Assembly: GCA_043228905.1 (NCBI GenBank)
Contig: JBHGNT010000015.1
Location: forward strand, 7,626,001-7,690,000
Length of the DNA: 64,000 nt
Direction of reading: 5' to 3'
Source: Azolla caroliniana
Taxonomy: Eukaryota > Plantae > Polypodiophyta
The translations under genes were made by a program, and so were the position numbers. This document shows, piece by piece, positions 11,787-61,871 of the stretch. The notes under the pieces were generated by a model. The model was given only the letters and a program-made list of their open reading frames with translations. It did not search any database and had not been told where the DNA came from. How positions within the stretch are numbered: position 1 is the first letter of the stretch; each line of letters opens with the position of its first letter.

Positions 11787-12220
11787 TGTTACCGGCCGGC
11801 AAAGGAGTCCAGAGTGGGAAACGGAGAGCTAATTAAGTAGTAGGAATGTGGTTGTAATTAAGCTATGAGTGTGGACGGACGGACCGGAATCGGTATGCCG
11901 TTCCGGATCCGGACCGATCCCGAACAGGTGCGGATGGCACCGTTTTGTAATACAGACCGGAAACCTATTTAAAGGCCCGGATACAATGTAATAGTTAGCG
12001 GTTAATTAATGAAAGCTTAAGCGTTGTTATCTCTCTGGGTTAATTGCCGTTCTGTCTTAATTGTTATATCTTACGCGTGTTATGAAAGACGATCCTAATA
12101 AGTAACTTAATTAAGTCGGATTAAGCGTTGAAGTCTAATCTGGTTGCCGTAACACCCTTTGGTGAAGTGTCTCCCGTAGACACCCTGTGTTAGGCCATTG
12201 TCCGGCCCGAAGAGTTAACA
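11787..12220 (+). repeat. 5' LTR of the Gypsy element
   Basis: TGTTAC...TTAACA, near-identical to 21152-21585. Confidence 0.97.
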
Positions 12221-12227
12221 CAGTTTT

Positions 12228-12238
12228 TGGCGACCACG
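12228..12238 (+). promoter_or_regulatory. Primer binding site, tRNA-Arg type
   Basis: TGGCGACCACG 7 nt after the LTR, complementary to the plant tRNA-Arg(UCG) 3' end as recalled. Same PBS at 47138. Confidence 0.75.
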
Positions 12239-12273
12239 ATTCCTGTTTTTGCAGCGAACGACGGCACGGATGG

Positions 12274-17200: not shown

Positions 17201-17942
17201 AGTAGTGGAAAGCCTAACGACCTTCTATGCCGTGGTCCACAAACGAAGCACACTTTACTATCCACAGGCGAACGGATTAGCAGAATCAACAAACAAGACG
17301 CTCCAGAATATCCTTCGGAAGATCGTCAATGAGAACTGGACGGATTGGGACACAAAGCTACATAGCACGCTTTGGGCATACCGGACGGCATACAAAACGA
17401 GCATCCAAACAACACCGTTCCGGTTGGCGTTCAGACTCGAGGCGGTCATGCCGGTAGAATTCCAAGTACCTAGCTTACGGATCCAGCTACGAGAACGGCT
17501 GAACGAGAAGGAGTCGGAGACAATAAGGTTGACAGCGCTGTGTGAGCTCGAGGAACAACGGTTGGCTAGCATCCTACATTTAGAATTGGAGCAACGGCAA
17601 CGGAAAGCATTCGTCGACCGGCACAGGAAAGGTAAGGAAAAAATGTTCGCAATCGGCAAACCGGTGTTAGTATTCCAAACCCGGATGGGCAAGATGCCAG
17701 GTAAACTACGGTTTAGATGGACCGGACCATATTGGCTAACACGGGAGTATAATGGGTCCTACCAGTTAGGGACACTTGCCGGCGAAGTGCTAGGCAAATG
17801 GGTCAACGGATTCCGGTTAAAGGCATATAGAGGACCGATGCCTAAGAACCCGTTTGAGCAAAGGACCGACGGCAGAGACGGAAAGCCGGGAACCGGAGAG
17901 AATGAGGCCGGTAAGGGTCCGAGAGGACCAACGGACAAGTGA
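14190..17942 (+). pseudogene. Gypsy pol: protease, RT, RNase H, integrase (several stops and frameshifts)
   Basis: VIDGGSG; WLSPIVVVPKK, FLDGFSGYNQI, FLDD; FVDASD..HVDH; H-H-C-C zinc finger, WGLDF, ISDQG, PQANGLAE, WTGPY. Confidence 0.97.
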
Positions 17943-18100
17943 CGTTACACTAATAATAATAATAACTGAAAAAAAGAAAGAAAAAAAAAACAATCATGCA
18001 AAAGCGAGGAATGAATGGAGGAAAGAGTGAGGAGCGAAAAGGTACGTAGTGGGCATTTAAAGCGCCACCACAGGACATAATGCTATTTTAAGTACGCGAC

Positions 18101-21097: not shown

Positions 21098-21151
21098 CAA
21101 GGGTTGGTTGTGGATTCGACGTACAAGGTACTGTCCCACGGGCGTGCCATG

Positions 21152-21585
21152 TGTTACCGGCCGACAAAGGAGTCCAGAGTGGGAAACGGAGAGCTAATTA
21201 AGTAGTAGGAATGTGGTTGTAATTAAGCTATGAGTGTGGACGGACGGACCGGAATCGGTATGCCGTTCCGGATTCGAACCGATCCCAAACAGGTGCGGAT
21301 GGCACCGTTTTGTAATACAGACCGGAAACCTATTTAAAGGCCCGGATACAATGTAATAGTTAGCGGTTAATTAATGAAAGCTTAAGCGTTGTTATCTCTC
21401 TGGGTTAATTGTCGTTCTGTCTTAATTGTTATATCTTACGCGTGTTATGAAAGACGATCCTAATAAGTAACTTAATTAAGTCGGATTAAGCGTTGAAGTC
21501 TAATCCGGTTGCCGTAACACCCTTTGGTGAAGTGTCTCCCGTAGACACCCTGTGTTAGGCCATTGTCCGGCCCGAAGAGTTAACA
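21152..21585 (+). repeat. 3' LTR of the Gypsy element
   Basis: Matches 11787-12220 and is followed by the ATCCA TSD. Confidence 0.97.
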
Positions 21586-34734: not shown

Positions 34735-36786
34735 CTTTGTCACGTCGCAAGCACTGGGTCACGTAGTGCCTTGGCTGTTGTAAAATGAAGCAATGCACGC
34801 TAGACTCGCCTCTTTCGGCTGTTGGTAGAGCCACTGGCTCAGGTTGTGGCGTGGGCTCATTGCGAGGTCATGGTTGGTACTGGTAATGTCGCATGTTGCA
34901 GGGTTTCCTGCGGTAGTCGCGTTGATTGTTATTGTGAGGTCAGTGTCGGTCCTCCTCCGAACTATCGTCTTGTGGGCGTTGGTTGCGAGTTTGTCGATCT
35001 CCTCCATACGCCCGCGGTTCGGTTGGCCCACCTCTATTATTTGTGGGGCACCTATTTCGTAGTGTTGCCCGTTTCTATTGTCGTATCGGTCATTTCGATG
35101 GTAGTCGTCATCATTTCTATCTTCATCTTCCCAATAGTGGTCGTCTTCTCGGCGAGCATATTCATTGTAACGAGGGCACTCCTCATGCCGATAGCGTTCA
35201 TCCTAGCGAAACCGCTTGTTTGGTTGCCTACCGTTGTGTTGTGGTTCAATTCTCCGAATTAGTGCCCTGGGTTCACTCAAGAGGTTATACTCACATTGAT
35301 TGATTGTATCTGCCCTAGAGTGGCTGATTGGGCCGTGAGCTCACATATTACACTCGACCGCCGAATGTCCCGGATTGAGGAAGATAGTGCACTGAATTGA
35401 TTATCGGAACCGGTACTCATCATCCTGTGGTCACACTTGTCGTAAGGAGGTCATGGACATGTTCTCTTTTGCATCTTCCATCTCCAACTGCAGGAAACCG
35501 ATCGATTATCGTGTCCACTGTCTGGCCCGTCAAATCAAGCATGCCCAGCGTCGTTCGCATAGATCTGCGTGAGGCCAAAAATGTATCATTCCCCGCCTCC
35601 TCAGTGGGTGCTCACTTTAGTTAGGTTTTGGAAGTGAATGATAAAATCTATGGACTCCTGACTAAACTGCCTAATCGAATCAAACTGGCCAATGATTTCG
35701 CGTTAGGGAACACTTCGATGGAACAGGCAAAGGAACATCATTCGAAGTTGGTCGAAGGTTGTGAAGGAGCCCAGGTCCAGCTGCGAGTGCCACCGCTTGC
35801 ACGTCCATCGAGAGTGAGCCCAAATTAAGCAATTCTGGATGTGTTGGCCTCGGCTTTTGGTAATCGTTGCAAGACGTGGTTGGCATTCCACGTGTTGAGA
35901 AAAGACCTCGCATGGGTCTCAATATCGGGTTTACCATTGTAGCGTGGGTATAGAAAATTCATGATGTCGAGAATGTAAAGGCCGATGTTGTTGTGGTCGT
36001 GCTCTAGTGGCAACGATGTGTGGTTGGCCTCAAAATTACTTCCGCTGGTGCTTATAATGACCGGGTGAATTGGGGAGAGGACCTTCTATCCAATGGTATT
36101 GTGCTTGGTGTGTGAGGACTTGAACACGCTTTCTTCGATGTGCAACAAATGGGTGTCGAGGCACGACTTTTCCAAGGTGAGCTCTGCCACCCGTTGGGAT
36201 TCTGCCCAAGTCTGAGGTTTGCCTCATCGGTTTGTCTCTCTACCACCTCGTTGACTAGACAACATTCATTCCCCGATGTTCTTCTATCTACTCATCAATT
36301 GACCAAGCGGGCCAAATGTGTTATCGTCTTAGGATAACACGGTGTTGAATTGCCGGTCCTTTTGACTATTCGACTCAAGGTCTTGTGGTAAGGGATAGAG
36401 TAGTGTTTGCTTCCCTTCAAACTGGTTTGATGATTTCGAACTACTGACTTAAATGAGGATCGAAACTAAGATTGTGCGATTGTGGAAATGACAAGCTGGC
36501 TATAATTGACTGTATACACAAAGGACGCATGCATGAACTCAACACAAATGAAGGACAACACAGTGCTCAAAGTATTGGAGACAAACAGAATTCTACTAGG
36601 CAAAAAGTGATACACAGTTCTTCGATCATCCTTTACAAGCTTTCCATGGCCCTTTATACAAGCTCATGAACAGTTATGTCTGCACATGAATCGTTACATC
36701 TATTCAATATCTTTTCTATTTTTACAATTATCTATTTCTTCATAATAGTTACTCGACCCTACCCATTCCCTTTATTCTTTCTAACA
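34735..36786 (-). mobile_element. 5' part of a Gypsy relative (LTR and decayed gag)
   Basis: Minus YNGKPDIETHARSFLNTWNANH..SRIA is homologous to gag at 12860-13000. Candidate LTR 36319-36786 (TGTTAG...ATAACA) followed by a TGG-starting PBS at 36301-36314. Confidence 0.75.
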
Positions 36787-37132
36787 GGCCTTCATCCTTG
36801 CTACACTTGGCCGATCAACCCAGCCAACATGCTCAAATGTTAGATTGTACATGAGTGAGAACAAAGCACTCTTTTACTGTTATATTACAATATGTTCAAT
36901 GATATACATGCTTAGGGGTTGACTCTCAATTTATGCACGTGGGACACAGATTTAGGGCATTGAGTACTACTTACTCTCTCTCTCTCTCTCTCACACCCTA
37001 CGTTTTACACAAGGACAACGACAATAAACTACAAGAGTTGGGCTTTCACTCCAACACAATTCTCATACATGAGAGAAATTACCAACTAATAATTATTTGG
37101 GATCTCTTGAACCTTCTAATGCAACACTATAC

Positions 37133-37760
37133 TATTGGGAGACAACCTCAACATAAGCCAAATAGGCTATAGGCCGGTAGGTAGGATCGGCTGAAGAAAT
37201 CGACAACCGAGTCAGTTGGGATAATTGGCTGGAGAAGCCAAATGCTAGATCGGCTAGGAGCCAACAGGTCGTTTGAGGCCTATACTCCTATTTTAGAAAT
37301 AGGACTAGTTTAGGTAGTTAGTGTGAGTAACTTCTTTATGAGCATTGAAGCACTTGTCCATAAGTCAGCCAGTCCTTTGGAGGACTTGTATTAAAGGTGC
37401 TCAATGAGTACATCATCATGTATTGAGTGTTATTATCTTCAATAGAATTTTTGTTTTCTTCTCTCTTACACACACATTGTTTATTCTCCATCTCAGTGTA
37501 TACCTAGCGGTTGTTGTCTGGCTAAGCCGACTATGTCTGTTGATTAGCTTCCACATCTAACTCTCCTACATGGTATCAGAGCGCGAGGGTTGAAGATCGT
37601 CTACATCTGACAAGTGCTTAGTATAGACAAGCTTTTGAATCTTCAGACAAGACGGATAGGAACATGGACAGAGGAATGGGTAGCTCCCTTCCAATAGAAA
37701 ATCTTGACAAGAGCAACTATGTATCTTGGGCATACAAGATCCACCAATACCTGGTTGTAT
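37133..37760 (+). mobile_element. Copia B-like LTR, Met PBS and gag start (truncated)
   Basis: LTR ends CCTACA at 37570, PBS TGGTATCAGAGC at 37571-37582, then [26 protein letters not shown] from 37676. Confidence 0.8.
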
Positions 37761-37799
37761 GCAGCAAGCAGAGTCTTGTACTGCTTTGCCTTGTGTGTC

Positions 37800-38243
37800 C
37801 ATGATCAGATACATGTACCTCACAATTCTAAGACATTGTCTACGGGTAAGTGCACTAAGTTAGCCCCACGGTTTTGTGGACCTTTTCAAGTTCTCAAACG
37901 CATTGGTTCATCAGCCTATCGTCTCACTCTTCCCGATGGCATTGAAATTCATCCACTTTTTCATGTAAGTCGTCTAAAAGAACTTCTAGGTTTTGGCGAC
38001 AATACAGTTACAACTGAAACTCTAGTTACTTCTGAAGAATTATCTTCTAAACCACATGTACCAGAAAGAATTCTCGATATTAAAACAAAAATTCCGCGTA
38101 CTAAAATAATCCGAGAATTTAAATTTAATTAAATGGATGGATAAATCTATCAAAGATGCCATATGGGAACACAAAAATACTCATAGAACTAATTTCCCTA
38201 ACTTTCCATTGCAAGAGTGCAATGTTTTAAAGAGGGGGGAGTA
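37800..38243 (+). mobile_element. Chromovirus integrase C-terminus, chromodomain and PPT
   Basis: [43 protein letters not shown]; PPT AAAGAGGGGGGAG at 38229-38241. Confidence 0.9.
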
Positions 38244-39250
38244 TGTTACAGGCATGACCATATAAAATCCCGTGGTAAGAATTTAGCGTAGTATTCTATA
38301 CACGTGGATAAGTGTGAGGGTTAAATGAGAGTGTAAAGAAGGGGAGGATTACTTTTAATCCTCGGGATTGAGACAACCCATTAGGCCAAGTGTGAACTTG
38401 CATGGGGGCCTAGGTACCCTCATTTCATCATCTCTTGACTACGTCGAGACTCTGTTCTTGTGGTGGGTCAACTCTTGTAATGAGCGTGCTAGCACCAAGT
38501 ACGACTCGATGCCATGGTGGTGGTATGGGACGCCGATCGAGGCTCAAGTCCGTCTCAGTTCCTTCGCTCGGGGGTAGTCGGGTGGATCGGCACCCTTTTT
38601 TCTCTCTCTCCTTTCTTATTTCATATATCTTTAATCCTTAACATATGCTTACGTTACACCATCGCTCTAACAATTGGTATCAGCGCTTATGTTTCTAATG
38701 TTTCTTTTGTTACCCCATTTTTCGTTAGAGGGTATACCGTTAGATTTAGGGTTCGTTATTCTTCTTCTTCTTCTTCTCCCCCTTCGTGTTCACTTAGGGT
38801 TGACTTCAGCTCGTCTCCTGCGCAAGACCCCGCTTGGCGCGACAACCCCGTGAGCTCCCGACCTGCGGCTTGGCAGCCAACGACTACTGTAACCTACCTT
38901 GGTCTGGCTCGAAGCCGGGAGTGTATTCCTCCTTTTATATATATACATTTGCGTCTGTCTGTGTATATTGGTGTCTCTGTTGGTGTCGGGTACTTCCCCT
39001 TTTCCTACGTTTCCTGTACATAAGGGCGTGAGTCGGGTCGGCCTGTGTGTGCGTGTGTGTGTGTGTGTGCGTGAGTCGGCGTCAAGTGCACGCTCCCTCT
39101 CTTTCTCCCTCTCCCTTCGGTTGCTTCCGTTGTGCTTCTAGGATGCCCCGGAAATGGTGAAGCACGACTTCCTACGCTCCGTCACTCCCTAGTCCAAGAC
39201 CCCCGTGGTCCCGCCTTTCTCCATGCACGTGCGTAACAACGCGACATCTT

Positions 39251-39268
39251 TGGTGAACCCGACGTGAA
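39251..39268 (+). promoter_or_regulatory. Primer binding site complementary to tRNA-Trp
   Basis: TGGTGAACCCGACGTGAA is the reverse complement of the plant tRNA-Trp 3' end (TTCACGTCGGGTTCA-CCA) as recalled. Confidence 0.85.
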
Positions 39269-39283
39269 AGACGGCAAGGGAGG

Positions 39284-40615
39284 ATGGAGTCGGAAGACGA
39301 CGACCTCGCGGAGATGGTGGCCGAAGTGGTGTTGGAGTCGGCACGAGTGGTGATGAGGCGAGAAGCAGCGCAACAAGCAGTTGAGCAAGTGGTCGAAAGA
39401 GTCGGCCGTTTCAACGGGGACAAAGTCCCATCTTACTTGGAAGCCTACAATGCGGAAATGGAGGAGCGCGGTGTAGACAAGGCGTTGAGGCTGGAGTTCT
39501 TCTGTCAGGTCGTAGTTGTCCGGATGCATGCAGAAGTAAAGGAGCTCCATGAGGCTCATAGTTCGTGGGAGGCCTTCGAAGAGGCGCTCCTGAAGGCATT
39601 CGGGGGACGGCGGAAGAGCCGGGGACAACACGACCTCGACCAGTGGGTAGCATCGGCAAAGACCCACCGGGGCGCGACCAAGGCGTTCCGAGAGTTCGAG
39701 CGACGGCTTGCTCGGCTCCCGAAGCGGGAACAAGGTTTGGTGGGGGCGGACAAGGTCCTATTGTTCGTCAGGTCGATCGACCGAGCGGAACGGGAGGTCA
39801 TCGGGATTGAGCTCGAAGAAGATGACGGGGCGAATGGGCTTACGGAGGACTGGTCGAAGGTCGGAAGGGTGTGCCAACGGCTAGACGACGGCGTGCCATC
39901 ACAACGGGAAGAGGCCGAACGGCAAAGGGAGTTGGCAAGGGTTGGCGTTGAGGCCCGGATTGCGGAGGCGTACGCGGCTCTCGAGGCGATGCTCGAGGAA
40001 GAGGAAAGACCGAGGCTGCAAGCCGAGACTGAGGAGACGGATTTGCCCCACGCGACGACAGAAGATGGGTACGTCGGTACCACAGGAGAGGGTGCGGAAC
40101 AAAACGCCCTCTCGACTTGCGGAGACAGAACGGCCAAGGACGAGGCCGAGATACAGATCGCGGAACCGGATAGTTGGGACCAGCGGTTTCGGCAGTGTCA
40201 GCCCGAAACCCCGGAAATCGGGGAAGCAAGCCCAAGCGGGGCTTGCGTGATCGGTAAGGAGACGACCGCCGACCACGAAGAGTCGGTGGCTACGGACAAG
40301 GGCGTAAAACGGATGGGCGAATCTTTGCGTCTTCTCACACTTGCTCCCGAGACGACGACAGTCGGGCTCGAGTGCCCACATAAGTCCCAAGAGGGGGAAG
40401 GCGGCCACAAGAGACCAAGAATCACCGGCGAGACGATACGGGGAAGGAGCGGACGAAAGCCCACGGACCCGATTCCAGAGAACTCGGCATTCGGGCCCGT
40501 ATGCCCATGTAAGACCGAGGAGTTGGATGGTAGTACCGAGGAGTCCTGGCATGATGCCAACGAAGATGGATGGGAGATGGCCGGCGAAAGGGTCGACGAG
40601 GAGACCAAGGAATGA
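39284..40615 (+). CDS. Gag-like capsid protein (443 aa, open frame)
   Basis: Starts just after the PBS. VGRFNGDKVPSYLEAY, SWEAFEEALLKAF, FREFERR..KVLLFVRSI resemble a Ty3/Gypsy capsid; acidic disordered C-terminus. Confidence 0.7.
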   Translation: MESEDDDLAEMVAEVVLESARVVMRREAAQQAVEQVVERVGRFNGDKVPSYLEAYNAEMEERGVDKALRLEFFCQVVVVRMHAEVKELHEAHSSWEAFEEALLKAFGGRRKSRGQHDLDQWVASAKTHRGATKAFREFERRLARLPKREQGLVGADKVLLFVRSIDRAEREVIGIELEEDDGANGLTEDWSKVGRVCQRLDDGVPSQREEAERQRELARVGVEARIAEAYAALEAMLEEEERPRLQAETEETDLPHATTEDGYVGTTGEGAEQNALSTCGDRTAKDEAEIQIAEPDSWDQRFRQCQPETPEIGEASPSGACVIGKETTADHEESVATDKGVKRMGESLRLLTLAPETTTVGLECPHKSQEGEGGHKRPRITGETIRGRSGRKPTDPIPENSAFGPVCPCKTEELDGSTEESWHDANEDGWEMAGERVDEETKE

Positions 40616-40949
40616 CCCGACCGGGGACCGAACCACGCGACGCTCCGATACGGGTGGAGCGTGATCCGGTCGTGGATTGTTCGATCGGGGCCGGATTCGG
40701 CATAAAGGTGCCGATACGGGAGAGGGTGCGGGACGAGCCGCCCTCTTTTACATGGGGAGAAAGACCAACCAGGCAAAGGTCGAGAGTTGGAAGGAGGGTG
40801 ATCAAAGGTTCGGAAAGAGTCTGGCAAGATCGGCATCGGAGCCGAAACTCTGGACATTGGAAAATCAAGCTCAGGCGGGCTTGCTTGATCACAGAGTGGA
40901 TGCTATCCACCGACACCACTAAAAGGGGCGGTGGCCCGGACAAGTCGCC

Positions 40950-42750
40950 GAAAGACGTTGTAAAATCGGTTACCCCACGTCCTATCCGGAGACTTCGGCA
41001 GTTTGGCCGACGTGGCAACATAAGACCGAGGGAGAGAGATGGAAGATGGAGGCGGGATTGCAGCAAGGAGAGCGACGACAAGTTCGGGAGAAGTACAGGA
41101 GAATGGAAGTCGGTCCTATGGAGTTCCTTACACCGATCCAGTTGTCGGCTCGAGTGCCGGCGTGAGTCCTATAGGAGAGGTTGGTGGCGACAGGAGATCA
41201 GGACCCTGCAATCCGGAGAAGGACGAACGGACCCGAACGAGAACCGGGTGGAACGGACTTCTGGAAAACCGTTCCGGGAGGAAGGGAGAGAGCAGGCCTA
41301 CAAAGAGGCCAGGAACACGGCACGTCAGTACCACAGGAGAGGGTGTGGAGCGAGCCACCCTCTCGACTTACGAAAGAAGGAATACCCGGGATAAGGGTCA
41401 GAGATATGGCAAGCCCGAGGAGGATCCTTCACACCGGTTCTACAGAAACCGGCGGTCGGCCTAAAGTGACGAATGGTGGCGGCGAGGGGACGAAGGCAAA
41501 GGGCTACGGATAGGCGGTCTATGGAGATCCTCACACCGATCCGGCGGTCGGTCCGAGAGCCGGCGTGAGTCCTATAGGAAAGGACGGTGGCGGCAGGTGA
41601 ACGTGACCAACAGGAGAGGATGGCGGAGGTAGAGCGGTGCAGCTGTGACCTTACACACACCGATTCTAGAGACTCCAGCAGCCAACGACAAGAGGAGGCG
41701 TGAGACCTAGAGTAAGGAACGGTGGCGGCGGCGGGCAACCGAAGCCAGAAGGGGAAGTCCCACGAAGATACTCACATTGATCCGGCGGTCGGCCCGAGAG
41801 CTGGCGTGAGTCCTATAGGGGAGATCGGTGGTGGCAAGACAACGTGATCGGACGATAGGAGGTGGAAGACGGCAAGGAGGTATGAGGCCGGCAAGGCGGC
41901 TACAGACCATGTCAAACCTTCCGGCGAGTTGAGTGGGCGTAAGGAAGTCCGGACCTATGGGATCCCCACACCTAACCAGAGACTCCGGCAGTTTGGCCAA
42001 CATGGCAACATGAGACCGAGAGAGAAGGTTGGTGGCGGCGGGAAACGGGACCCGACTACGCGGAAGACAGGAGGAGAGTCCGGGAGGGACTCAAACAAAA
42101 GACACCTGGATTTCGGCAAGCGACGAAACGAAGACTGGTCCTATGGGATCTTCACACCGGTTTCAGATACTTCGGTTGTTCGGCCAACGTGGCAACATAA
42201 GACCGAGGGAGAAGGAAGGTGGCGGCAAGGGATGGGACCTGGCATCGACAAAGGAGCTGGTAAGACGGGCGGACGAAGTGCAAAACCCTCACCGGCCGGT
42301 TACGGTTTCGGAAGGAGCCAGTAGGGGCAAACACGGGGAGGTGTGTCAGGCCGGAAAGGCACACCTGGGACGGAACAAGAGTCTCACAAGTGGCCATCGC
42401 GGGCTGGATCGAAGCGTGACTACGGGACGGTGTTCGGCACGGGCGGAGCCAAACAAAGGAAGCGGAAGATGGCACAAGGGAGGTGCCGGGAACGAGGTGA
42501 CAAGTGCATAGTGGACTACACAGGGTCGGAGTCAAGGGATGACAAGGGAGTCCGGAGGAGGATCCTCCACACTCGCTTCGTCGATCTCGGCAGTCAGAGT
42601 AGCGAAGATTGACACGGCAAGCCCGGGATGACAAGCTGGTGGGGCGAGGGGATGACGGCAAGCGGAAGACTCGGGACCTGTTGCAGCAGCCCAAAACGGG
42701 AAAGGCGAAGCGGGCCACTATGGGTATTCCTCAAGCGGAGGACATCGGGC
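40950..42750 (+). repeat. Array of degenerate GC-rich hairpin repeats
   Basis: CCTATGG..CTCACACCG-like motifs near 41115, 41420, 41518, 41760, 41953, 42140 and 42558. GGCGTGAGTCCTATAGG x3. TGGCAACAT(A/G)AGACCGAG x3. Confidence 0.8.
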
Positions 42751-43561
42751 ATACGGCGGAGAGCGGGGCGTTCATACGGCCGAACAAGGGCCAGCGGAAG
42801 TACGCATACTATGGAGATCGCGGTGAAGGACCCATCGACAGGTCGAACAAGCCTACGGGGAGGTAAGCGCGAAGGAAGAACTGAAGCCGACGGATCAAAC
42901 CGGCAGCGAGCCGAGATGCGGATTACGGAAGACCGGTTTCTCACCGGCTGAAATCTCTCACCCTTCACCGGATTTGGCACGTACCGGTGGACGTGCGGTT
43001 TGGTGGGGGCGGATGTCGTGAAGAATTTCGGCCAGAGGCGGAAACCGGGAAACATTGGCTACATCGGTGGGGTGCAGCATGTGTGCTCACCCTTGTACAT
43101 TTAGTGTGAATAACGAGGGCGCCTTTATGGGACAGACGATCCCATGTAAGTCGGGATTTATCCCACATTGTAACACATCCCTCTCCTTGTTCTATAAAAG
43201 GAAGCGAGCGCCCTTTGTGAAAGGGTTGCCCATTTTTCGTTAGAGGGTATACCGTTAGATTTAGGGTTAGTTATTCTTCTTCTTCTTCTTCTTCTCCCCC
43301 TTCGGGTTCGCTTAAGGTTGGCTTCAGCTCGTCTCCTGCGCAAGACCCCGCTCGGCGCGACAACCCCGTGAGCTCCCGACTTGCGGCTTCGCAGCCGACG
43401 ACTACTGTAACCTACCCTGCTCCGGCTCGAAGTCGGGAGTGTATTCCTCCTTTTATATATATACATTTGCGTCTGTTTGTGTATATTGGTGTCTCTGTTG
43501 GTGTCGGGTACTTCCCCTTTTCCTGCGTTTCCTATACATAAGGGCGTGAGTCGGGTCGGCC

Positions 43562-43593
<32 letters not shown>

Positions 43594-46500
43594 AGTCGGC
43601 GTCAAGCGCGCACTCCCTCTCTTTCTCTGTCTCCCTTCGGTTGCTTCCAGTGTGCTTCTGGGATGCCCCGAAAACGGTGAAGCACGACTTCCTACGCTCC
43701 GTCACTCCCTAGTCCAAGACCCCCGTGGTCCTGCCTTTCTCCACGCACGCGCGTAACAACGCGACAACGTAACGAAACGATCATAGCCACAATGATAGTG
43801 AGAACGTAGGGCTTGACCCACTTCATGTGAGGTTGCTCCTATGAAACACATATCCAACATCCCTCCCTCATTACATGGATATGATGCCACCATGAGATCA
43901 TTCTTACGAAAGGTATTCGTAATGACGTCACCATGTGCTAGGCCATGTGGGCCTACTACAAAAGGAGGGCTCATTTCGCTTGACAATTAGGTTGCACTTT
44001 GGCGTATGCCATCGTAATTATGGGACTTGAGGTCGGTAACGTACCAACATAGTGTGTGGTAAATGAGAGGGAAATAAGGACTCTTCACATATATGTTTCT
44101 TTTAAAAAAACAGATATAGGCAAATGCCTCGCATATCTCTTATACGCATAAAACATTAAACTTTCAACATGAGCAACCTATTTGGTTAGCTCAAGTGTTT
44201 AATGCATTTGTTCTCGAGGTCTCGAGTTCAAATATGACCAAGATCATAAAACATTGTTGATACATATGACTATAATACATGTTTAGACTTTAGGTCTAGG
44301 TGCACTTCGGGGTCCTCATAATAGGACTTGAAGAGCCGAAACCACATAAGTCGGCACAAAAACATAGTTTATTATTAACATTTTTTTTGTGTATAAACTA
44401 TTCATGACGCGAACGTACATGGTTGAGCCTCGGGGAGCCGCCATGAAAAAATAGATATAGAGACCAGGGAAAGAAATTCATTTGTCACACCCATGGTTTT
44501 TAAAACACCTTTGTGTTACCATAGTAACCTGATCTTCAACCTCATCTCATACGTCTAGAGGGGTATTGATGTGAGATCATGATATCGATTAATGTTTGCC
44601 CACATTATATGTTTACATCATGACATGATGTTATGACTATTTGTCAGACCTTATCCTATTTCTTTCCCAGAAATAATCATTCAATGGCTCAGAATAACGA
44701 CCTGATGTCATCCGCTCAAGCAGAAGGAACTCAAGGAAATCCTCTTAGACCAATCTCCAGTCAGTCGTATTTCTTACAAATAAAATTTTTCCTTAGTTCA
44801 ACCGCTCATCAGATTTCTGAACTTCCGCAATCTCAAAGTTCTCTCGAGGCACATGTCATTAGTTTTCAACATGAAACTAATAAACCCGATGAGCGTTAGG
44901 GTGAACCTTCATTTGTCGTAAAGCACCTGGTTGGGCCGATGGGAGTCTAATTTTGAGCTATATCCCACGCCAAATAGTACGAAGATTGCATATGTCGGCC
45001 GAGAACTAGGGGGTAAGGCCGCTGTCTAGTTGCATGGGCTCTGCACATTGGGGAAATTGCCCGATACGTGGACAGATTTTGTCATAGTTTTGAAGGGCCA
45101 ATTTTTGCAACCTCCATCTCCAACCGAGGCAACACAAGCATTAATGAACCTCTCTAGCCGGAAATTTTCTTCGCTAGAAGACTATGTCCACCATGCTAGA
45201 ACCCAATTCCAAAAATCAGGTCTAGAAGGGGACAATTGGTTAATAGCTTGTTTTGTCAATGGCATCTCCAATTCTAACCATCACTCGATAGTGCACGATA
45301 AGGATCCAAAATCCTTCAAAGAGGCCGTTGCAATATTTCTTCGCTATCAATGCACTTCGAAGAAGGACCATAACAAACCCAACAAAGCGGTCGGGACTAA
45401 GCAGTTGCAATTAGCTGGGAAAACGGGATCGCGATTGTAAGCGACAACATCCTATTTGCAAATTCTCCAAAAAGAAGGGTCATACAAAAGAGCAATGTCA
45501 AAAGCTCCAACAGAAAGAGCACGACAACAAAACAAAAGTTCCAGACCATAAAGGCCAGATTCCTAATGTCCTTCATGTCTATACACATCATTTAAGTAAT
45601 TGTCAATGTTCTTTCCCTCACTATGTATTGGGACCCAATGATTTACTATGTCTAACCCATCATAAGTGATCACACATATAAGGTGCACTTGGCTGATGGA
45701 AGAGTACAATACATCAACGAGGCGATTCATTCATTAGGAATTTCTATTGATACTTATATAGAGGAAGTAGACTTCCATGTAATGAATCTTTGTACCACTG
45801 ATGTAATATTGGGTTATCCCTGGTTTTTTAATTAAAACTCTTCTTTATCTATTGATTGGGTTCATCATTCAATTACTTTTGTACTAAACGATTGTAATCA
45901 TTTTATTCAATGTGCTGAAAAACAATCTCTTTCGATTGTTTTCTCACCCTCAATATTCGAGTTGTCTTGCTCTACTTTATTTTATTGTGTACTTGATCCG
46001 GACATTCAGGTTTACAATATCGATAATGTCTCAGTTCAATTATCATATTTTGAACAACAACAACTTGATGAAATCTTAAATGATTCTTATGATGTTTTTT
46101 CCGAGTGAACTACCACATGGGTTTCCTCCTAAAAGTAATACAGACCATCATATAGATATTGTACCTGGCACTGCACCAATAAGTATACCTCCTTATCGCT
46201 TAAGTCGATCCGAAGAGGATAAGGTATCTAAGCAACTCACTGACTATTTACGAATGGGTTATATACGTTATAGTAAATCTCGATGGGGTGCACCTGTTCT
46301 CTTGGTAAAAAAGAAAGAGGGCACATGGCGTATGTGTATTAATTACTAACGCTTGAATAAAGTGACGATCAAGAATTCATATCCATTGCCCAGGGTTGAC
46401 GATCTAATTGATTGTCTCCAAGGATCTTGGTATTTTACGAAACTTGATCTCTATAGGGGCTACCATCAAATTCGTATAAGTGAGGATGATGTTCCTAAAA

Positions 46501-46685
46501 CGGCATTTCGTACGCGCTATGGCCATGACGAGTTTTTGGTCATGCCTTTCGGTTTGACCAATGCTCCGGACACATTTCAACAAGAAATGAATGACATTTT
46601 CCGAGAACAACTTGGAAAATTTGTCGTTATTTTCTTCGATGATATTCTAGTTTATAGTCGTACATTAGAAGAACATGCTAAACAT

Positions 46686-49600
46686 TGTTGGCCGGTTAGG
46701 CCAAAGTATGAAAGGGGAGCCGGTTTTGTGATAAAGGGAGTTGTAATTAGAATTAATTATTATAATTATACGATCAGACGGACGGACCTAGAATCGGTAT
46801 GCCGATCTCGATCCAGAGCGGTTCGTAGCCAGTTGCCGGTTGGCACTGATTTGTAACACAATCGGATACCTATAAAAGGGTCCAGATATGATGTAACCGA
46901 AGACGGATAATTAATAGAGAAGTGCTGCTATTTTCATATCTTGTCTATCTCGTTATTTCCGTTCTATGCTTAATGATGTTGATTCTACGCGTGTAACTAA
47001 TCGATCCAGATAAGGATCGAGGAGGGTCGATTCTGTGTTACGGTCTTCCCAGTCCTTACTGTACCACCCATTTGGTGAAGTGTTCCAGGAGGACATCCTG
47101 TGTTAGTGGCTTGTCCAACCCCGCATTAACACAGTTTTGGCGACCACGATTCCTGCTGAAAGGAGTGAACATCGGGGGAATGGATGACTAGGGCAACGAA
47201 CAACGTAGTCGCCGAACGAGCAAAAAGACTGGCCGAGAGACTGCGGAAGTGGGAGGCTTACCAGCAGGCGGCAGAGGAGATACGGTCGGATCATGTCTTT
47301 TTCCAGAGTTATTTGGCGGGTCGCAGAGGAGTCACTCCGATTGCAACAGAACCACCACTTGGAGGAAGGAAGTAGTCTGAGTAGTCTACAGGAAGTGGAG
47401 TCCATTCTACAGAGACTTGCCACAAGGGACGACGGTTCGGAAGTGTTCTCCGCAATCGAATTATATTCGAACGGCGAACACAGTGTCCAATCGAATTATC
47501 GTAGTAGCCACGATACCCTAGCCGACCCAAAAGAGGACGAGTCGGACCACATACCGACGTCGGAGTTGGAAACAACAAAACCGGAGGCTCTGGACAAAAT
47601 GACCGACGTGGACCACCAAGAGGAAGAGTAAGTTCCGACACCACAACCCGAATCAACAAAGGAACAGGAAAAGTGAGATCCGACACCACAGCCCAAGTCA
47701 CCGACGGAATAGGAGGAGCGAGTTCCGGCACTGCCCCCGGCAGCACAAGAAGATGACGACATAATGCATTACCAATATCTGAAGTATCGGGATGAACCAG
47801 ACGCGGAATCCCACATACATGCGTTTTGCCAAACATGGGAGGCGAACCATGTCTCCCAACAGCTGACCGAAATAGAGGCCAAACGATCAAAAATAGCAGA
47901 ATTCGGCATGACTTTGAAGGAGCCAGCAGCACGATGTCACTCTAAGCACCTCACCGGTAGTATCGCCATGTTTGAAGAGTTAAAGATAAGATTTCTACGA
48001 TTCTTCCACAAACAGGTGGATCAAAAAGAAATTGTTGGGCAATTCTATGTGACATGACAGGACCCTTCAGAAACCATTTAGTAATTCGTTATCTGGTTCC
48101 AGATGATGCATAGTCAACTCACTAGAGCACTGCCAGAAGAAGAAGCGAAAGTAGTATTTTTGGCAGCGCGCCGGGAACCCCTCCGAACCGTTTGTCTGAT
48201 CATAGATTTTCGGACCAGCACAATAGACCAGGTCATTGACCGGGTCATGGAGATGGACAAAAATAGTTCGTGGTTGACGATGGGAGCACTCCAAAGCACA
48301 CTCCCTACCAAAGAGGACCTACGCTTTCGCTAGGCGGCCCAATGCACGACGTGCCTTAATCCTGCGTAGTCAACAGTAGAGTGCACGATCAAATCGTAGT
48401 GCGTGTTATGCCAGTCCCGGTCACTCACAATGGACCGCTGTGAATACAACCTGCTAAATCGGCAACCTGCACCAGTCCAGTACATCGAAACCTAGAACGA
48501 CCAAGAGGATGCAGAAGAAAGATTTTGGCGAGACAATCGCTACAGACCGACACAAGATGTCCGATACAGCGATAGACGGGACGATTATAACCGGGACCGG
48601 AACGATCGAAGTCACGACTAGAATGGTGATCGTTATGATCGAGATTACTCCCCCACCTACAATAGGAGGATAGAGGATCAATGGGGAGACTATGATAATC
48701 GGCGCCGGCAAGGATATCGGAACAACTGACGCTATAATAAAAAACAGAACGCTCGAAAAGAGGAGCATCAAGAACCGGCGAAGGATTACCAACGGGAGCG
48801 GGATAGAAGCATAACTAGTGCTCAATCGGAACAATGAAGGATAAAGGAGCCCAACCGGGCAGTATCCAATTTTCAGCTGGGTAACGCGCCAAAAGCAGAG
48901 TCTAGAAATACGCTGAAGGTGTATTGCTACTATTGTTGGCAGGACGGCACTACACCAATCAGTGTCTAGTGAAGACTAACGAAAAAAGTCTGGCAATCAA
49001 CATAGTGGTCGTAGAGGTGGTCGACATCCAGCAAATCACTACCAGGTTGAAAGGAAAGATGGCCGAATGGGAGGCTCAGGAAGCGATACAAAAACAAGCC
49101 ATAGAATGGATCGAAAAAGTGAACAGGATGGTCGCCAGTGAGGACAAATGGCTGATGAACATGCATCAGCACTGGACTGCCTCCAGAAGAGTAAAGTCGA
49201 GACAAGCGGAAACAATTGGCGTTACAAAGCCGACACTTTTGTTTATTGCAGGATACGTTGTACCACAATGGAACAGATGGTATATGGAGAAGAGCGATCT
49301 AGAGTGACGAAAAGGACACAATTTTACGGGAAGCTCACTGTGGAGTCGTTGGAGGACACTATGATGGGGACGCAATAGCAAGGAAAATATGGCAAAGAGG
49401 ATTATGGTGGCCTACAACACTAAAGGACTCTATGCGGTATGCAAAAAGTAATGTGCACGAACCAGAACTCCCCGACCTAAGAGAGGAGTTAGCAGCTCAA
49501 AAGGCCTTACGAGCCAGATATAGGGAGCAAAAGAAGACACCGGAGGAGGAGAAGCGAAAAATAGAAGAAAATCTCCAAAAGACTCAGGCAGCTAACAACC

Positions 49601-50604: not shown

Positions 50605-53600
50605 TGTTACGAGCATGACCATTTAATATCCCGTGGTGAGAATTTACCGTAGTATTCTATACACGTGGATAAGTGTGAGGGTTAAACGAGAGTGTAAAGA
50701 AGGGGAGTATGTTACGGGCATGACCATTTAATATTCCGTGGTGAGAATTTACCGTAGTATTCTATACACGTGGATAAGTGTGAGGGTTCAATGAGAGTGT
50801 AAAGAAGGGGAGGATTACTTTTAATCCTCGGATTGAGACAACCCATTAGGTCAAGTGTGAACTTGCCTGGGGGCCTTGAGTATCGCTATAAATAAGAGGC
50901 CTAGCTACCCTCATTTGGTGATCTTTTGACTACATCGAGACTCTGCTCTTGTGGTGGGTCAACTCTTGTAGCGAGCGCGCCAGCACCAGGTATGACTCGA
51001 CGCCACGGCGGTGGTATGGGACACCGATTGAGGCTCGAGTCCGTCTCGATCCCTTCGCTCGGGGGTGGTCGGGTGGATCGACACCCTTCTTTCTCTTTCT
51101 CCTTTCTATCTATCATTAGTTCATCCTTATCTTAAGCTTACTTTAGTACCAAGATCACTAATATTTGGTATCAGAGCTATGTACTAATGTTTCTTTGTTT
51201 CTCTTTTGTCTTTTGATTGATGGTGATCGATCGATGTGTGGTCGGCCTTGATCTAGACAACGATCAACAAAGAACTTCGGTAACTCTTTCCGTAATTTTT
51301 TTTTCTATTCTCTCTTCTCCCATCTAATCATGTGTTTAGTTTATATGTCATTTTTTTTCATTAAGTCAATGATGTTGTAATGGTCTTTAATTGATTATCT
51401 AAAACGTTTACATATGTGCACGAGGTCAATACGTCGTTTGACATATAAATAATATGTGATGAGTGTCGTATGCGTACGAGGTTAATACCTCAATTACGTA
51501 TTACATTCATGAACATATGTTACGTTTGCGTATGAGTTTAATACCTTGATTTGTTGTAAAGGATATGTGTTTGGTCTCGTATGCGTAAGAGGTCAATACC
51601 TCAATTGCGTATTACGATGATCTCTTATTTGTGGATGTTTCGTGTGCGTAGAGGTATATACCTCGATTACGTATCTCGATCACATCATTTGTGGCTATTT
51701 AATATAACGATATTTTTAATATAGGCATATGTGGTCACGTATATGCGTATTTGATCGTATATATGTGATAAGTAAACATATGTGTATATTCGTTATTACA
51801 TGATTATATCGAAAGTTGTCCTTGTCGGGAAAAGGATGTTGGTGGCTATCCTCACATTTTTGTGAGAATGGCGTTGTCACCATCCCTTTTTCAACAATTT
51901 TTTATTGTTGACAACCCCGTTGATGACCTCGATTTCGTTACGTAAAGAAACGCCTATAGCCATAATGATGTTGAGTACGTAGGGCTTGACCCACTTCAAG
52001 TGAGGTCGCTCCAATGACACACGTATCCAACATCCCTCCCTCGTTACATGGATACGATGCCACCATGAGCTCATTCTTACGAGAGGCATTCGTAATGACG
52101 TGACCATGTGATGGGCCACATGGGCCTACTACGAAACGAGGGCTCATTTGGCTTGACCATTAGGTTGCACTTTGGCGTATGCCATCGTAATTACAAGACT
52201 TGAGGTTAGGTAACGTACCAACATAGTTTTGGTAAATGAGGGCGAAATAAGGACCCTTGACATATATGTTCTTTTTAAAAAAACATATATGATCAAATGC
52301 CTCGCATATCTCTTATACGCATCAAACATTAAGCATTCGAGAAGAGCAACTTACTTGGTTGGCTCAAGTGTTTAATGTATTTGTTCTCGAGATCTCGAGT
52401 TCAAATATGAGCAAGAGCATACAATATCCTTGATACATATGAATATAACACATGTTTAGACTTAAGGTCTAAGTGCACCTCGGGGTCCTCGTAATAGGAC
52501 TTAAAGAGCCGAAACCACATATGTGGGCAAAGAAACATAGTTTATTGTTAACATTTTTTTCATGTATAAACTACTCATGACACGAACATACATGGTTGAG
52601 CCTCGGGGAGCCGCCATGAAAAAATCGATATAGAGATCAGGGAAAGTCATTAAATTGTCACCCCCATGGGTTTTAAAACACCTTTGTGTTACCATAGTAA
52701 CCTGATCTTGAACCTCATCTCATATGTCTAGAGGGGTATTGACGTGAGATCATGATATCAATTAATGTTTGCCCATGATATGTTTACATCACGACATGAT
52801 GTTATGACTATCTCTCTGACCTTATCCTATTTCTTTTCCAGAAATAATCTTTAATGGCTCAAATTGACGACCCGATGTCATCCGCTCAAGCGGAAGGAAC
52901 TCAAGGAAATCCTCCTGGACACATGTCCACTGAGATGTATTTGGCACAAATAAGCCAATACCTTAGTTTCACTGCTCAACAAATGACCAAACTTCGGCAA
53001 TCTCAGAGTGCTCTTGAGGCACGTGTCATTAGTCTACAACGTGAGACTAATAGACCTGATGAGCAACAAGGTGAACCATCATTTGTCGTTAAGCCATTTA
53101 CGGGAGACAAAAAGGAAAGAACCGAAGAAGCAATCTACACCTGGTTGGGCCGATGGGAGTCTCATTTTGAGCTCTATCCTACGCCAGATAGTACGAAGAT
53201 TGCATATGTCGGCCGAGAACTCGGGGGTAAGGTTCCGTACTATGGGGAAATTGCCCGATACCTGCACAGATTTTGTCACGGTTTTCAAAGGCCAATTTCT
53301 GCAACCTCCCTCTCGAACCAAGGCAGCACAAGTTTTAATGAACCTCTCTAGCAGGAAATTTTCCTCGCTAGAAGACTATGTTCACCATGCTAGAACCCAA
53401 ATCCAAAAATCGGGTCTAGAAGGGGACAATTGGTTGATAGCTTGTTTTGTCAATGGCATCCCCAATTCGGACTATCACTGGATAGTGCACGATAAGGATC
53501 CAAAATCCTTCAAAAAGGCCATTGAAATAGTTCTTCGCTATCAACGCACTTCGAAGAAGGACCAAAACAAACCCAAAGAAGCGCCCGGGACTAAACAGTC

Positions 53601-53790
53601 GCAATTCGTTGGGAAACGCAAGACACCCAACGAATTCCTGGATCGCGATTGTAAGCGACAACATCCTTTTTGCGCATTCTGCAAAAAGAAGGGTCACACA
53701 AAAGAGCAATGTCGAAAGCTCCAACGGAAAGAGCACGACAGCAAACCTAAAGCTTCAGACCATAAAGGTCAGATTCCTAATGTCCTTGAG
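50605..53790 (+). mobile_element. Met-primed chromovirus-type Gypsy copy 2 (LTR with 105-bp duplicated start, PBS, 1.7-kb leader, gag)
   Basis: LTR 50710-51163 matches 38244-38672, extra copy of its start at 50605-50709, PBS TGGTATCAGAGC at 51166. gag from 52854 with CAFCKKKGHTKEQC. Confidence 0.9.
51410..51675. repeat. Five palindromic ~35-bp repeats at ~56-bp spacing
   Basis: Consensus GTATGCGTA.GAGGT.AATACCTC.ATTACGTA; cores at 51422, 51478, 51534, 51589 and 51651. Confidence 0.8.
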
Positions 53791-60951: not shown

Positions 60952-60980
60952 GTTTGTGTGTGTGAGAGAGAGAGAGAGAG
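60922..60980. repeat. Compound microsatellite (AT)n(GT)n(GA)n directly before the start codon
   Basis: Read directly from the sequence. Confidence 0.95.
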
Positions 60981-61871
60981 ATGGCCAGAGATGGAGGAGA
61001 TTTATTAGAAGAAGGGTTGCTTAGCACACCCCAAGACAAAGACAAAGACAAAGGCACAGGCACAGCACAGGAGAAGGAGGAGGAGGAAGATGGATCATCC
61101 AGCAGTTTGGAGGAGAAGCTACGACGGAGCCTTGCGGATCTGGTGGAGCACCGAGCATCGGCGGCATCGAGCCTCCGGCGCCGTCAATGGCGGTTGGAGA
61201 AGCCGAAGGCAGGGGCCAGAGGAGGAGAAGGAGAAGGAGAGGAAGGAAGAGCTGAGTGGCGGAAGAAGTTGGGGGAGGCCCTTGAGTCCACCACTGCCCA
61301 CATCATCATCCTCTCCCTCCTCCTCATCGACCTGTTGGCCACTGTAATTGACATCCTACACACAATCCACGCAGACTCCCGCAACCTCTCCACTTGCCTC
61401 TCCCTGCTTCACTCCTGCACTTGCACTTCCTCCGACTCTACGGACACCTCTGATCCCTGGGAAGCCCTGTCGTATATCGGCATCGTCATCCTCTGCATCC
61501 TCTTCCTCAATATCCTCGGCCTCCTAGTCTCCCTCGGTCCCCGCACCTTCTTCTCGCACCCCGGCTATGTCCTCGACTTTGTTGTAGTAGTAACCGCCCT
61601 TTCCCTTGAGTTCTTCCTTGACAGTGACAGCAGTATCGGTCTTCTCGTCATCTTCAACTTGTGGCGCATTGTCCGAGTTGCACATGGCATCTTCGAGTTC
61701 ACTGACGAGGCATGGGAGAAGAATGTGAAGAAGCTCGAAGCACAGATTAATTCAGTCGAAGCCAGACGGCAAGCTGACCTTCACACTATCAATGAGCTGC
61801 GAGCTCGCATCTGCTACTTGGAAGAGCAACCAAATCAAGGTTCACATAAGGGAGATGATCAATATTCTTGA
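60981..61871 (+). CDS. Hv1: Voltage-gated proton channel (Hv1/HVCN1-like), intronless, 296 aa
   Basis: Four TM helices without a pore domain. S1 IIILSLLLIDLL carries the Asp selectivity residue, S3 VLDFVVVV, S4 LWRIVRVAHG with the WRxxR signature, and a C-terminal coiled coil. Confidence 0.88.
   Translation: MARDGGDLLEEGLLSTPQDKDKDKGTGTAQEKEEEEDGSSSSLEEKLRRSLADLVEHRASAASSLRRRQWRLEKPKAGARGGEGEGEEGRAEWRKKLGEALESTTAHIIILSLLLIDLLATVIDILHTIHADSRNLSTCLSLLHSCTCTSSDSTDTSDPWEALSYIGIVILCILFLNILGLLVSLGPRTFFSHPGYVLDFVVVVTALSLEFFLDSDSSIGLLVIFNLWRIVRVAHGIFEFTDEAWEKNVKKLEAQINSVEARRQADLHTINELRARICYLEEQPNQGSHKGDDQYS

What the first reader, a model, noticed from the sequence alone, without database searches (positions are those of the whole stretch)
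38714..43766. tRNA-Trp-primed, gag-only LTR element
Seen: two LTRs, an 18-nt PBS matching tRNA-Trp, an open 443-aa gag-like ORF, a PPT, and 2.4 kb of GC-rich repeats where pol should be. Known: plant LTR elements mostly use tRNA-iMet, or Arg/Lys/Asp in Athila/Tat; Trp priming is best known from avian retroviruses; TR-GAG elements are gag-only parasites. Inference: a distinct non-autonomous lineage that supplies its own capsid and borrows pol from a partner not in this window.
Basis: partly seen in the sequence, partly recalled or inferred. Interest (0 to 1): 0.72.

Follow-up and report, generated by a model that had tools for sequence, protein, structure and literature searches.

The report
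Capsid-only parasite of Trp-primed retrotransposons
This is one damaged copy of a plant jumping-gene family, with hundreds of copies, that keeps its own capsid gene but has no copying enzymes and likely borrows them from complete, equally tryptophan-primed elements in the same genome; the priming is normal for that group and such parasites are known, although these carry an odd repeat-built tail.

Summary
The element is real and is not a one-off deletion. It is a decayed copy of a pol-less LTR family in a seed-free land plant: at least 272 copies, and 0 of 43 position-ordered copies carry their own pol. Trp priming is no novelty: tRNA-Trp and 4-bp NCGN target duplications are listed hallmarks of the Phygy Ty3/gypsy lineage (PMC6317226, supplement). 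The genome holds 5,561 such primer sites; 35 of 64 sampled lead into autonomous-type gag with a nucleocapsid region, many in young complete elements. The family shares only LTR tips, PBS and PPT with them, and its capsid coding region shows purifying selection (p=0.0004). The GC-rich repeats are not pol remnants; they match the repeat-built tail that a young sister family keeps in frame with gag up to the PPT (16 of 19 copies). Another sister is a chimera: its capsid N-half groups with an autonomous family, its C-half with the parasites. Verdict: a TR-GAG/Quinta-like parasite of Phygy-like helpers, in a new structural variant. Trans-mobilisation is inferred, not shown.

The parts
38714..39246 (+). 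5' LTR, truncated: first 215 bp lost
   Evidence: 93% identical to 43229-43766; full LTR length from the 3' LTR and from 17 complete copies
39251..39268 (+). primer-binding site, 18 nt, tRNA-Trp(CCA)
   Evidence: the same PBS in autonomous elements
39284..40615 (+). gag ORF, 443 aa in this copy (family mode 479 aa); no CX2CX4HX4C zinc knuckle in the full-length family ORF tested, no protease
39404..39898 (+). capsid (CA) region, aa 41-205; about 39% identical to autonomous gag; under purifying selection in transmitted variants
39899..40705 (+). low-complexity, repeat-derived tail of the gag ORF, interrupted in this copy by a premature stop at 40613-40615; conserved aromatic C-terminal motif in frame at 40646-40705
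   Evidence: weaker constraint, p=0.013
40706..42990 (+). GC-rich, T-poor degenerate repeats; no coding constraint in this family; homologous to the in-frame gag tail of sister gag-only families; no pol homology
43002..43013 (+). polypurine tract; with about 30 nt upstream and the first 30 nt of the LTR it is 80-91% identical to many autonomous elements
43014..43766 (+). 3' LTR, complete, 753 bp, TGTCG...CGACA
43767..43770 (+). right target-site copy ACGT (NCGN type); the same four bases at the empty site of the paralogous host element (51940-51943)

Best explanation
The stretch is a damaged copy of a gag-only LTR retrotransposon family with hundreds of copies, which likely makes its own capsid protein and likely borrows protease, reverse transcriptase, RNase H and integrase from complete tRNA-Trp-primed, Phygy-like Ty3/gypsy elements of the same genome. 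Shown: no own pol in the copies sampled; dispersed insertions with NCGN target duplications, so a Phygy-type integrase acted on them; conservation with autonomous elements only at the cis-signals (last 55-60 bp of the LTR plus PBS; PPT plus first 30 bp of the LTR); purifying selection on the capsid coding region; a separate gag-only clade about 40% identical to every sampled autonomous gag. Inferred: transcription, co-assembly of the parasite's Gag with helper Gag-Pol, priming by host tRNA-Trp, and template switching in mixed particles, which would explain the chimeric sister family. The best helper candidate is the older autonomous family of L061/L088/L120 (84% over the last 64 nt before the PBS; L061 LTRs 95% identical), whose age overlaps that of this family (LTR divergence 0.02-0.05). 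The repeats are the likely relic of a repeat-built tail that replaced the nucleocapsid and pol; this family now stops translating it after about 480 codons.
For: Copy number: 150 of 150 scored gag hits at 87% identity or more; 272 exact matches of a family 27-mer, control 0. No pol: 0 of 43 position-ordered copies show nucleocapsid or protease after gag; 27 of the 43 include their own 3' LTR and none has pol before it; 41 of 43 continue into the family tail and 2 break off in gag; one sense-strand pol (L160) is a nested element with its own PBS. Pol profile: best score below 0 bits on 19 test sequences, 1351 bits on the control. TSD: 17 of 40 copies had two whole LTRs; 12 of 17 exact 4-bp TSDs, 16 of 17 within one mismatch, central CG on at least one side in 17 of 17. 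Selection: capsid N:S 131:59 in singletons vs 19:29 in variants shared by 4 or more copies, Fisher p=0.00036; no such shift in wrong frames or after the stop; indels shared by 2 or more of 27 copies: 1 in the ORF (in frame) vs 45 after the stop (7 in frame). Helpers: 35 of 64 sampled PBS sites lead to gag with a nucleocapsid region (after removing 2 extra sites); 21 have two LTRs, RT and IN, 12 of them with LTRs 99.3% identical or more; L084 has open gag-PR and RT-RH-IN frames. Clade: C-half capsid tree groups the 10 gag-only rows at 100/100 against 10 autonomous rows (20 of 49 rows used). Chimera: L112 and P0005 are 63-66% identical to autonomous L063 in the N-half and 72-73% to the window protein in the C-half; AU tests reject the swapped placements, p=0.030 and 0.0025.
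Against: No expression, protein or particle data. Only 1 of 43 position-ordered copies keeps the 479-aa ORF, so this family looks largely inactive now. The full LTR is not shared with any sampled autonomous family, so the helper is not pinned down. Only 64 of 5,561 PBS sites were classified, so a rare autonomous member of the gag-only clade is not excluded. The capsid C-half model is low-confidence (pLDDT under 50 for residues 109-133 and 148-209) and Foldseek gave no match at E<=0.001. Without a zinc knuckle, how this Gag would bind RNA is unknown. The AU groups were named after a first tree was seen and used LG+G4 without a mixture model. RT was not compared with REXdb Phygy references.
Confidence: 0.8

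Rival explanations
1. The family is an ordinary internal-deletion derivative of an autonomous element that still exists, or recently existed, with the same gag and LTR; gag conservation is inherited from that parent and the parasite's Gag is not needed.
For: Only 64 of 5,561 PBS sites and 150 gag hits were examined; most copies have broken ORFs; sister families L075/L085 match only about 100 aa of the capsid query and still spread.
Against: 0 of 17 gag-only-clade sites in the census and 0 of 43 family copies have nucleocapsid or pol; the clade has diversified to 50-55% capsid identity, all without pol; the tail in place of pol has no pol homology; selection acts on variants shared among pol-less copies.
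Confidence: 0.1
2. The Gag is selected for a role other than packaging its own RNA, for instance as a dominant-negative capsid fragment that restrains competing Phygy-like elements or helps the host, and the RNA rides in helper-made particles.
For: No zinc knuckle; a long tail that is net acidic over most of its length; truncated capsid proteins that restrict retrotransposons exist (a Ty1 CA-CTD restriction factor is listed; the mechanism is recalled).
Against: Selection is seen along transposing lineages of hundreds of dispersed copies rather than at one fixed locus; the chimera indicates co-packaging with helper RNA.
Confidence: 0.07
3. The repeats are decayed pol or an env-like or antisense extra ORF, as in Athila/Tat elements.
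For: The position between gag and PPT; ORFs of 200-280 codons occur on both strands.
Against: No pol match by tblastn or profile; no coding constraint in three sense frames; 9-17 stops in each of six frames of a well-kept copy; DNA and peptide matches go to the sister families' gag tails. Antisense frames were checked only for stops, not for selection.
Confidence: 0.03

Closest known systems
Phygy lineage (Ty3/gypsy, non-chromovirus; Neumann et al. 2019, PMC6317226: passages and supplementary file 3 rows seen)
   Same: tRNA-Trp PBS, 4-bp NCGN TSD; the helper elements have gag-PR-RT-RH-IN order filling nearly the whole internal region, and their named RT relatives are liverwort (Riccia sorocarpa) proteins at 56-70%.
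   Different: Described from Physcomitrella patens as 7.7-10 kb elements with a polyprotein; the helpers here are about 7.2 kb and this family is about 5 kb without pol. RT phylogeny against Phygy references not tested.
TR-GAG elements (Chaparro et al. 2015, PMC4350172: abstract, methods part and passages seen)
   Same: LTRs, PBS, PPT, a single gag ORF (433 aa in TR-GAG1), no RT; multi-copy.
   Different: TR-GAGs are generally under 4 kb with 5-bp TSDs and TR-GAG1 keeps a zinc finger; this family is 4.7-5.9 kb with 4-bp NCGN TSDs, no zinc knuckle, and an internally repeated tail.
RLG_Quinta with RLG_Cereba in wheat (PMC11302176: abstract and passages seen)
   Same: A long-lived gag-only partner of an autonomous gypsy element, with gag plus an extra domain of unknown function, shared LTR termini, PBS and PPT, a diverged gag, and recombination around gag.
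   Different: A different lineage (centromeric, CR-domain integrase); Quinta shares larger LTR parts with one helper family, while here several helper families coexist and one parasite branch has taken a helper's LTR end and capsid N-half.
GAG/PROT-retaining non-autonomous families of sugar beet (PMC13570524: passages seen)
   Same: 28 of 115 families keep only GAG/PROT, sizes exceed the TR-GAG limit, and short internal duplications are frequent.
   Different: No in-frame repeat tail running to the PPT appeared in the passages read.

Membership tests
Phygy | PBS complementary to tRNA-Trp | tested here: met
   vs PMC6317226 supplement
Phygy | 4-bp TSD of type NCGN | tested here: met
   central CG in 17 of 17 family copies; NCGN on the left in 19 of 19 sister copies
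Phygy | RT/RH/INT group with Phygy references in REXdb | not testable with these tools
   No REXdb profiles held; the element has no pol; helper RT's named hits are Riccia sorocarpa proteins
Phygy | polyprotein spans nearly the whole internal region, 7.7-10 kb | tested here: not met
   Not met by this family; the layout is met by the helpers, which are about 7.2 kb. It is a derivative, not a typical member.
TR-GAG | LTRs, PBS, PPT, TSD | tested here: met
TR-GAG | single ORF with gag homology and no RT | tested here: met
TR-GAG | at least two copies | tested here: met
TR-GAG | length under 4 kb (1-6 kb in the authors' automatic filter) | tested here: inconclusive
   4,685-5,859 bp in 17 complete copies: over the stated 4 kb, inside the 6 kb filter
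TR-GAG | 5-bp TSD | tested here: not met
   4-bp NCGN
TR-GAG | transcribed | not testable with these tools
   no RNA holder listed
Quinta-type semi-autonomous partner | LTR termini, PBS and PPT shared with an autonomous family; gag conserved at protein level only | tested here: met
   80-91% at the termini, gag about 39% in protein with no DNA match
Quinta-type semi-autonomous partner | one identifiable helper family | tested here: inconclusive
   best candidates 84% over 64 nt, others 75-81%

The most novel reading that the evidence does not exclude
A long-lived guild of capsid-only retroparasites has replaced nucleocapsid and pol with a tail built from peptide repeats; in its young branch the frame is held open for 1,000-1,400 codons up to the polypurine tract while the sequence and even the final frame drift (for example to escape nonsense-mediated decay of a long 3' UTR, or as a disordered packaging arm), and the guild changes helpers by taking over a helper's LTR end and capsid N-half.
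Probability: 0.3. Interest if true: 0.62.

Novelty: new variant of a known kind. Interest (0 to 1): 0.38.

Why it matters
Gag-only parasites of gypsy elements are known, so the category is not new. This genome offers an unusually rich natural test of how they persist: 17 of 64 sampled Trp-primed sites belong to one gag-only clade, with old and very young families, several candidate helpers and a helper-parasite capsid chimera. That makes helper choice and the use of a retained gag testable from sequence and RNA data. The open, sequence-indifferent tail of the young sister family is the part a specialist would find odd. Four literature searches (plus 77 on semi-autonomous elements in ferns and bryophytes; listings read) showed no description of non-autonomous Phygy derivatives, but the library lacks most subscription papers and genome-paper repeat libraries may already hold these families.

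Tried and rejected
Tandem Repeats Finder: 0 arrays in 36000-47000. Rfam: 0 matches in 38600-43900. Decayed pol: rejected. Coding constraint after the stop: none in three sense frames. Amino-acid-level selection on the sister family's tail: not shown; shared N:S 27:8, 27:16 and 35:8 resemble wrong-frame controls, and the capsid part had too few variants. Pairwise dN/dS (0.22 for the capsid) was not relied on, because those 40 copies were picked by gag score and, for 20 of them, with a preference for long open frames. Sequencing runs: no RNA holder listed; no reads were laid. Foldseek: no match at E<=0.001, although its top five rows are Arc and PNMA2 capsids. The search of protein representatives gave 810 hits at E<=0.001, mostly unnamed fragments, and did not fix the range. 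A pattern for a second sister family was mis-spaced and found 3 sites; not used. Script faults: one search printed nothing; the tblastn part failed and was redone; the family TSD calls were off by one base and were redone; the frame-dependent L093 results were in a wrong frame and were redone; one search matched only 12 of 20 sister copies, all 20. Earlier-findings look-ups returned nothing. The host lineage is unresolved among seed-free plants.
Full report
Observation. The complete LTR is 43014-43766, 753 bp, with TGTCG...CGACA ends. The 5' LTR starts 215 bp short. The flanks match a second copy of a host LTR element at 50695-53787, which shows the empty target ACGT; about 740 bp of that host element are missing to the left, so one deletion removed the left junction. 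The PBS at 39251-39268 pairs with host tRNA-Trp(CCA): the pattern has 62 exact genomic matches and 6 of 6 loci tested are tRNA-Trp. The ORF's first half is a retrotransposon capsid: Pfam is weak (E=0.075), but the ESM Atlas puts it next to Retrotrans_gag clusters (0.95) and the confidently modelled N-domain matches dArc1 capsid at Z 11.1, rmsd 1.8, 77 residues. The C-half of the model is low-confidence.

A family, not an accident. The genome (523 Mb) gave 150 of 150 scored gag hits at 87% identity or more and 272 exact matches of a family-specific 27-mer, both lower bounds. I fetched 40 copies chosen by gag score and, to avoid that bias, the first 43 of the 272 by position (three already held). 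None of the 43 has a nucleocapsid or protease hit after gag; 27 include their own 3' LTR with no pol before it; 41 continue into the family tail and 2 break off in gag. One sense-strand pol was checked and is a nested element with its own PBS; other pol hits lie beyond the 3' LTR, on the other strand or are of other lineages, and were not each traced. Seventeen of the first 40 copies have two whole LTRs: 4,685-5,859 bp long, LTR divergence 0.020-0.052, 12 exact 4-bp TSDs, central CG in all 17. The window copy is older (0.065) and damaged: it lacks 36 nt present in 57 of 59 alignable copies and stops 30 codons before the family's C-terminal motif; that stop is shared by 1 of 7 copies alignable there. 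Only 1 of the 43 keeps the 479-aa ORF.

Trp priming is the lineage norm. Neumann et al. 2019 (PMC6317226; passages; supplementary file 3) give Phygy as tRNA-Trp 81% and TSD 4 bp NCGN 100%. The genome has 5,561 exact Trp PBS 17-mers, control 0. I examined 64 of the first 71 listed sites (7 skipped, 3 of them at known family copies): 35 lead into gag with a nucleocapsid region, 17 into the gag-only clade, 12 were unclassified (after removing two extra sites of L120). Twenty-one have two LTRs with RT and IN between them, 12 with LTRs at least 99.3% identical; L084 has open gag-PR and RT-RH-IN frames. Named relatives of its RT are Riccia sorocarpa proteins, and a host gene points to a seed-free land plant without fixing which. 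A comparison with REXdb references was not possible, so 'Phygy-like' rests on PBS, TSD and layout.

What is shared with helpers. At DNA level the element matches autonomous elements only over the last 55-60 bp of the LTR with the PBS and over the PPT with the first 30 bp of the LTR, at 80-91%; other matches in that call come from neighbouring gag-only copies inside the fetched stretches. Gag is about 39% identical in protein. The closest LTR ends (84% over 64 nt) belong to the older autonomous family of L061, L088 and L120.

Gag is maintained. With a real copy as reference, capsid variants seen once run 131 nonsynonymous to 59 synonymous, those shared by four or more copies 19 to 29 (p=0.00036); wrong frames and the region after the stop show no such shift. 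The tail to codon 479 shows a weaker shift (p=0.013). Shared indels number 1 in the ORF and 45 after the stop. In a C-half capsid tree the 10 gag-only rows form one clade at 100/100 against 10 autonomous rows (20 of the 49 rows).

The repeats. A pol profile from 25 natural proteins scores below 0 bits on the window stretch, 17 family internal regions and one sister tail, and 1351 bits on a decayed autonomous control. The repeats match, in DNA (68-88% over 37-125 bp) and in peptide, the tails of sister gag-only families. In the young sister L093 (40 of 40 hits at 99-100%) that tail is in frame with gag: 16 of 19 copies with a 3' LTR have ORFs of 1,011-1,419 aa that end within 30 nt of it or run into it, in three terminal frames; the frame has no internal stop in 1,222 codons against 21 and 25 in the other frames. 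Amino-acid constraint there was not shown, and deletions between in-frame repeats keep the frame by themselves. Neither ORF tested has a CX2CX4HX4C knuckle. So the window family likely descends from a long-tailed form and has retired the distal part. Why the frame stays open is unknown; escape from nonsense-mediated decay is my guess (search listing only), and the window family's own success with about 2 kb after its stop argues that it is not essential.

Recombination with a helper. L112 and the database protein P0005 group with autonomous L063 in the capsid N-half (98/96) and with the parasites in the C-half; AU tests reject the swapped placements (p=0.030, 0.0025), and L112 carries L063-type LTR ends. 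This is what template switching in a mixed particle would leave; the groups were named after a first tree, so the p-values are optimistic.

Known comparisons and verdict. TR-GAG (PMC4350172) defines gag-only LTR elements; RLG_Quinta (PMC11302176) is a long-lived gag-plus-unknown-domain partner of RLG_Cereba with the same pattern of shared termini; 28 of 115 beet non-autonomous families keep only GAG/PROT (PMC13570524). The element works like these. It fails two TR-GAG descriptors (5-bp TSD; under 4 kb) and is a derivative rather than a typical member of Phygy. Searches (listings) showed no account of non-autonomous Phygy derivatives; the large supplementary tables of PMC6317226 that list single elements were not among the text held. 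New variant of a known kind; interest 0.38.

Noticed in passing
G000:C8:17.80-17.82 Mb (L187), C5:10.10-10.11 Mb (L188), C16:4.99-5.11 Mb (L189): Host tRNA-Trp(CCA) genes are amplified in arrays: 62 exact pattern matches genome-wide; three stretches hold 8, 7 and 13 Trp genes plus two copies with a CTA anticodon, with periods near 1.2 kb and 0.87 kb. Whether this relates to the load of Trp-primed elements is untested.
   Followed up: partly
L093 and L167-L186: A very young gag-only sister family: 40 of 40 scored hits at 99-100%, 0-3 LTR mismatches in 11 copies, ORFs of 1,011-1,419 aa reaching the PPT or LTR in 16 of 19 copies, in three different terminal frames; no internal stop in 1,222 tail codons against 21 and 25 in the other frames and a mean of 36 in shuffles.
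   Followed up: yes
L112, P0005; probably also L094, L111: Chimeric gag-only family: LTR end and capsid N-half like autonomous L063, capsid C-half and tail like the parasite clade.
   Followed up: yes
L075, L085, L073: Gag-only families that match only about 100 aa of the capsid query (N-half) yet have LTR pairs 96-100% identical; their tails and those of P0002-P0005 and L093 end in a Trp-rich basic motif.
   Followed up: partly
window 38228-38713 and 43767-45573; paralog 50695-53787: The element sits inside another LTR element with an iMet-type PBS (type recalled); a second copy in the window shows the empty ACGT target site.
   Followed up: partly
window about 11787-21585: A young LTR element (LTRs 98.6% identical over 434 bp) with gag, RT and integrase frames and long extra ORFs after integrase at 18092-20776.
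   Followed up: no
window 60966-61868: Single open frame for a voltage-gated proton channel-like protein; named relatives from ferns, a lycophyte and a liverwort at 49-56%.
   Followed up: partly
window 39225-39246 and the same place in other families: The last 20 nt of the LTR look like a short hairpin whose arms differ in step between families (seen by eye); not folded or tested.
   Followed up: no
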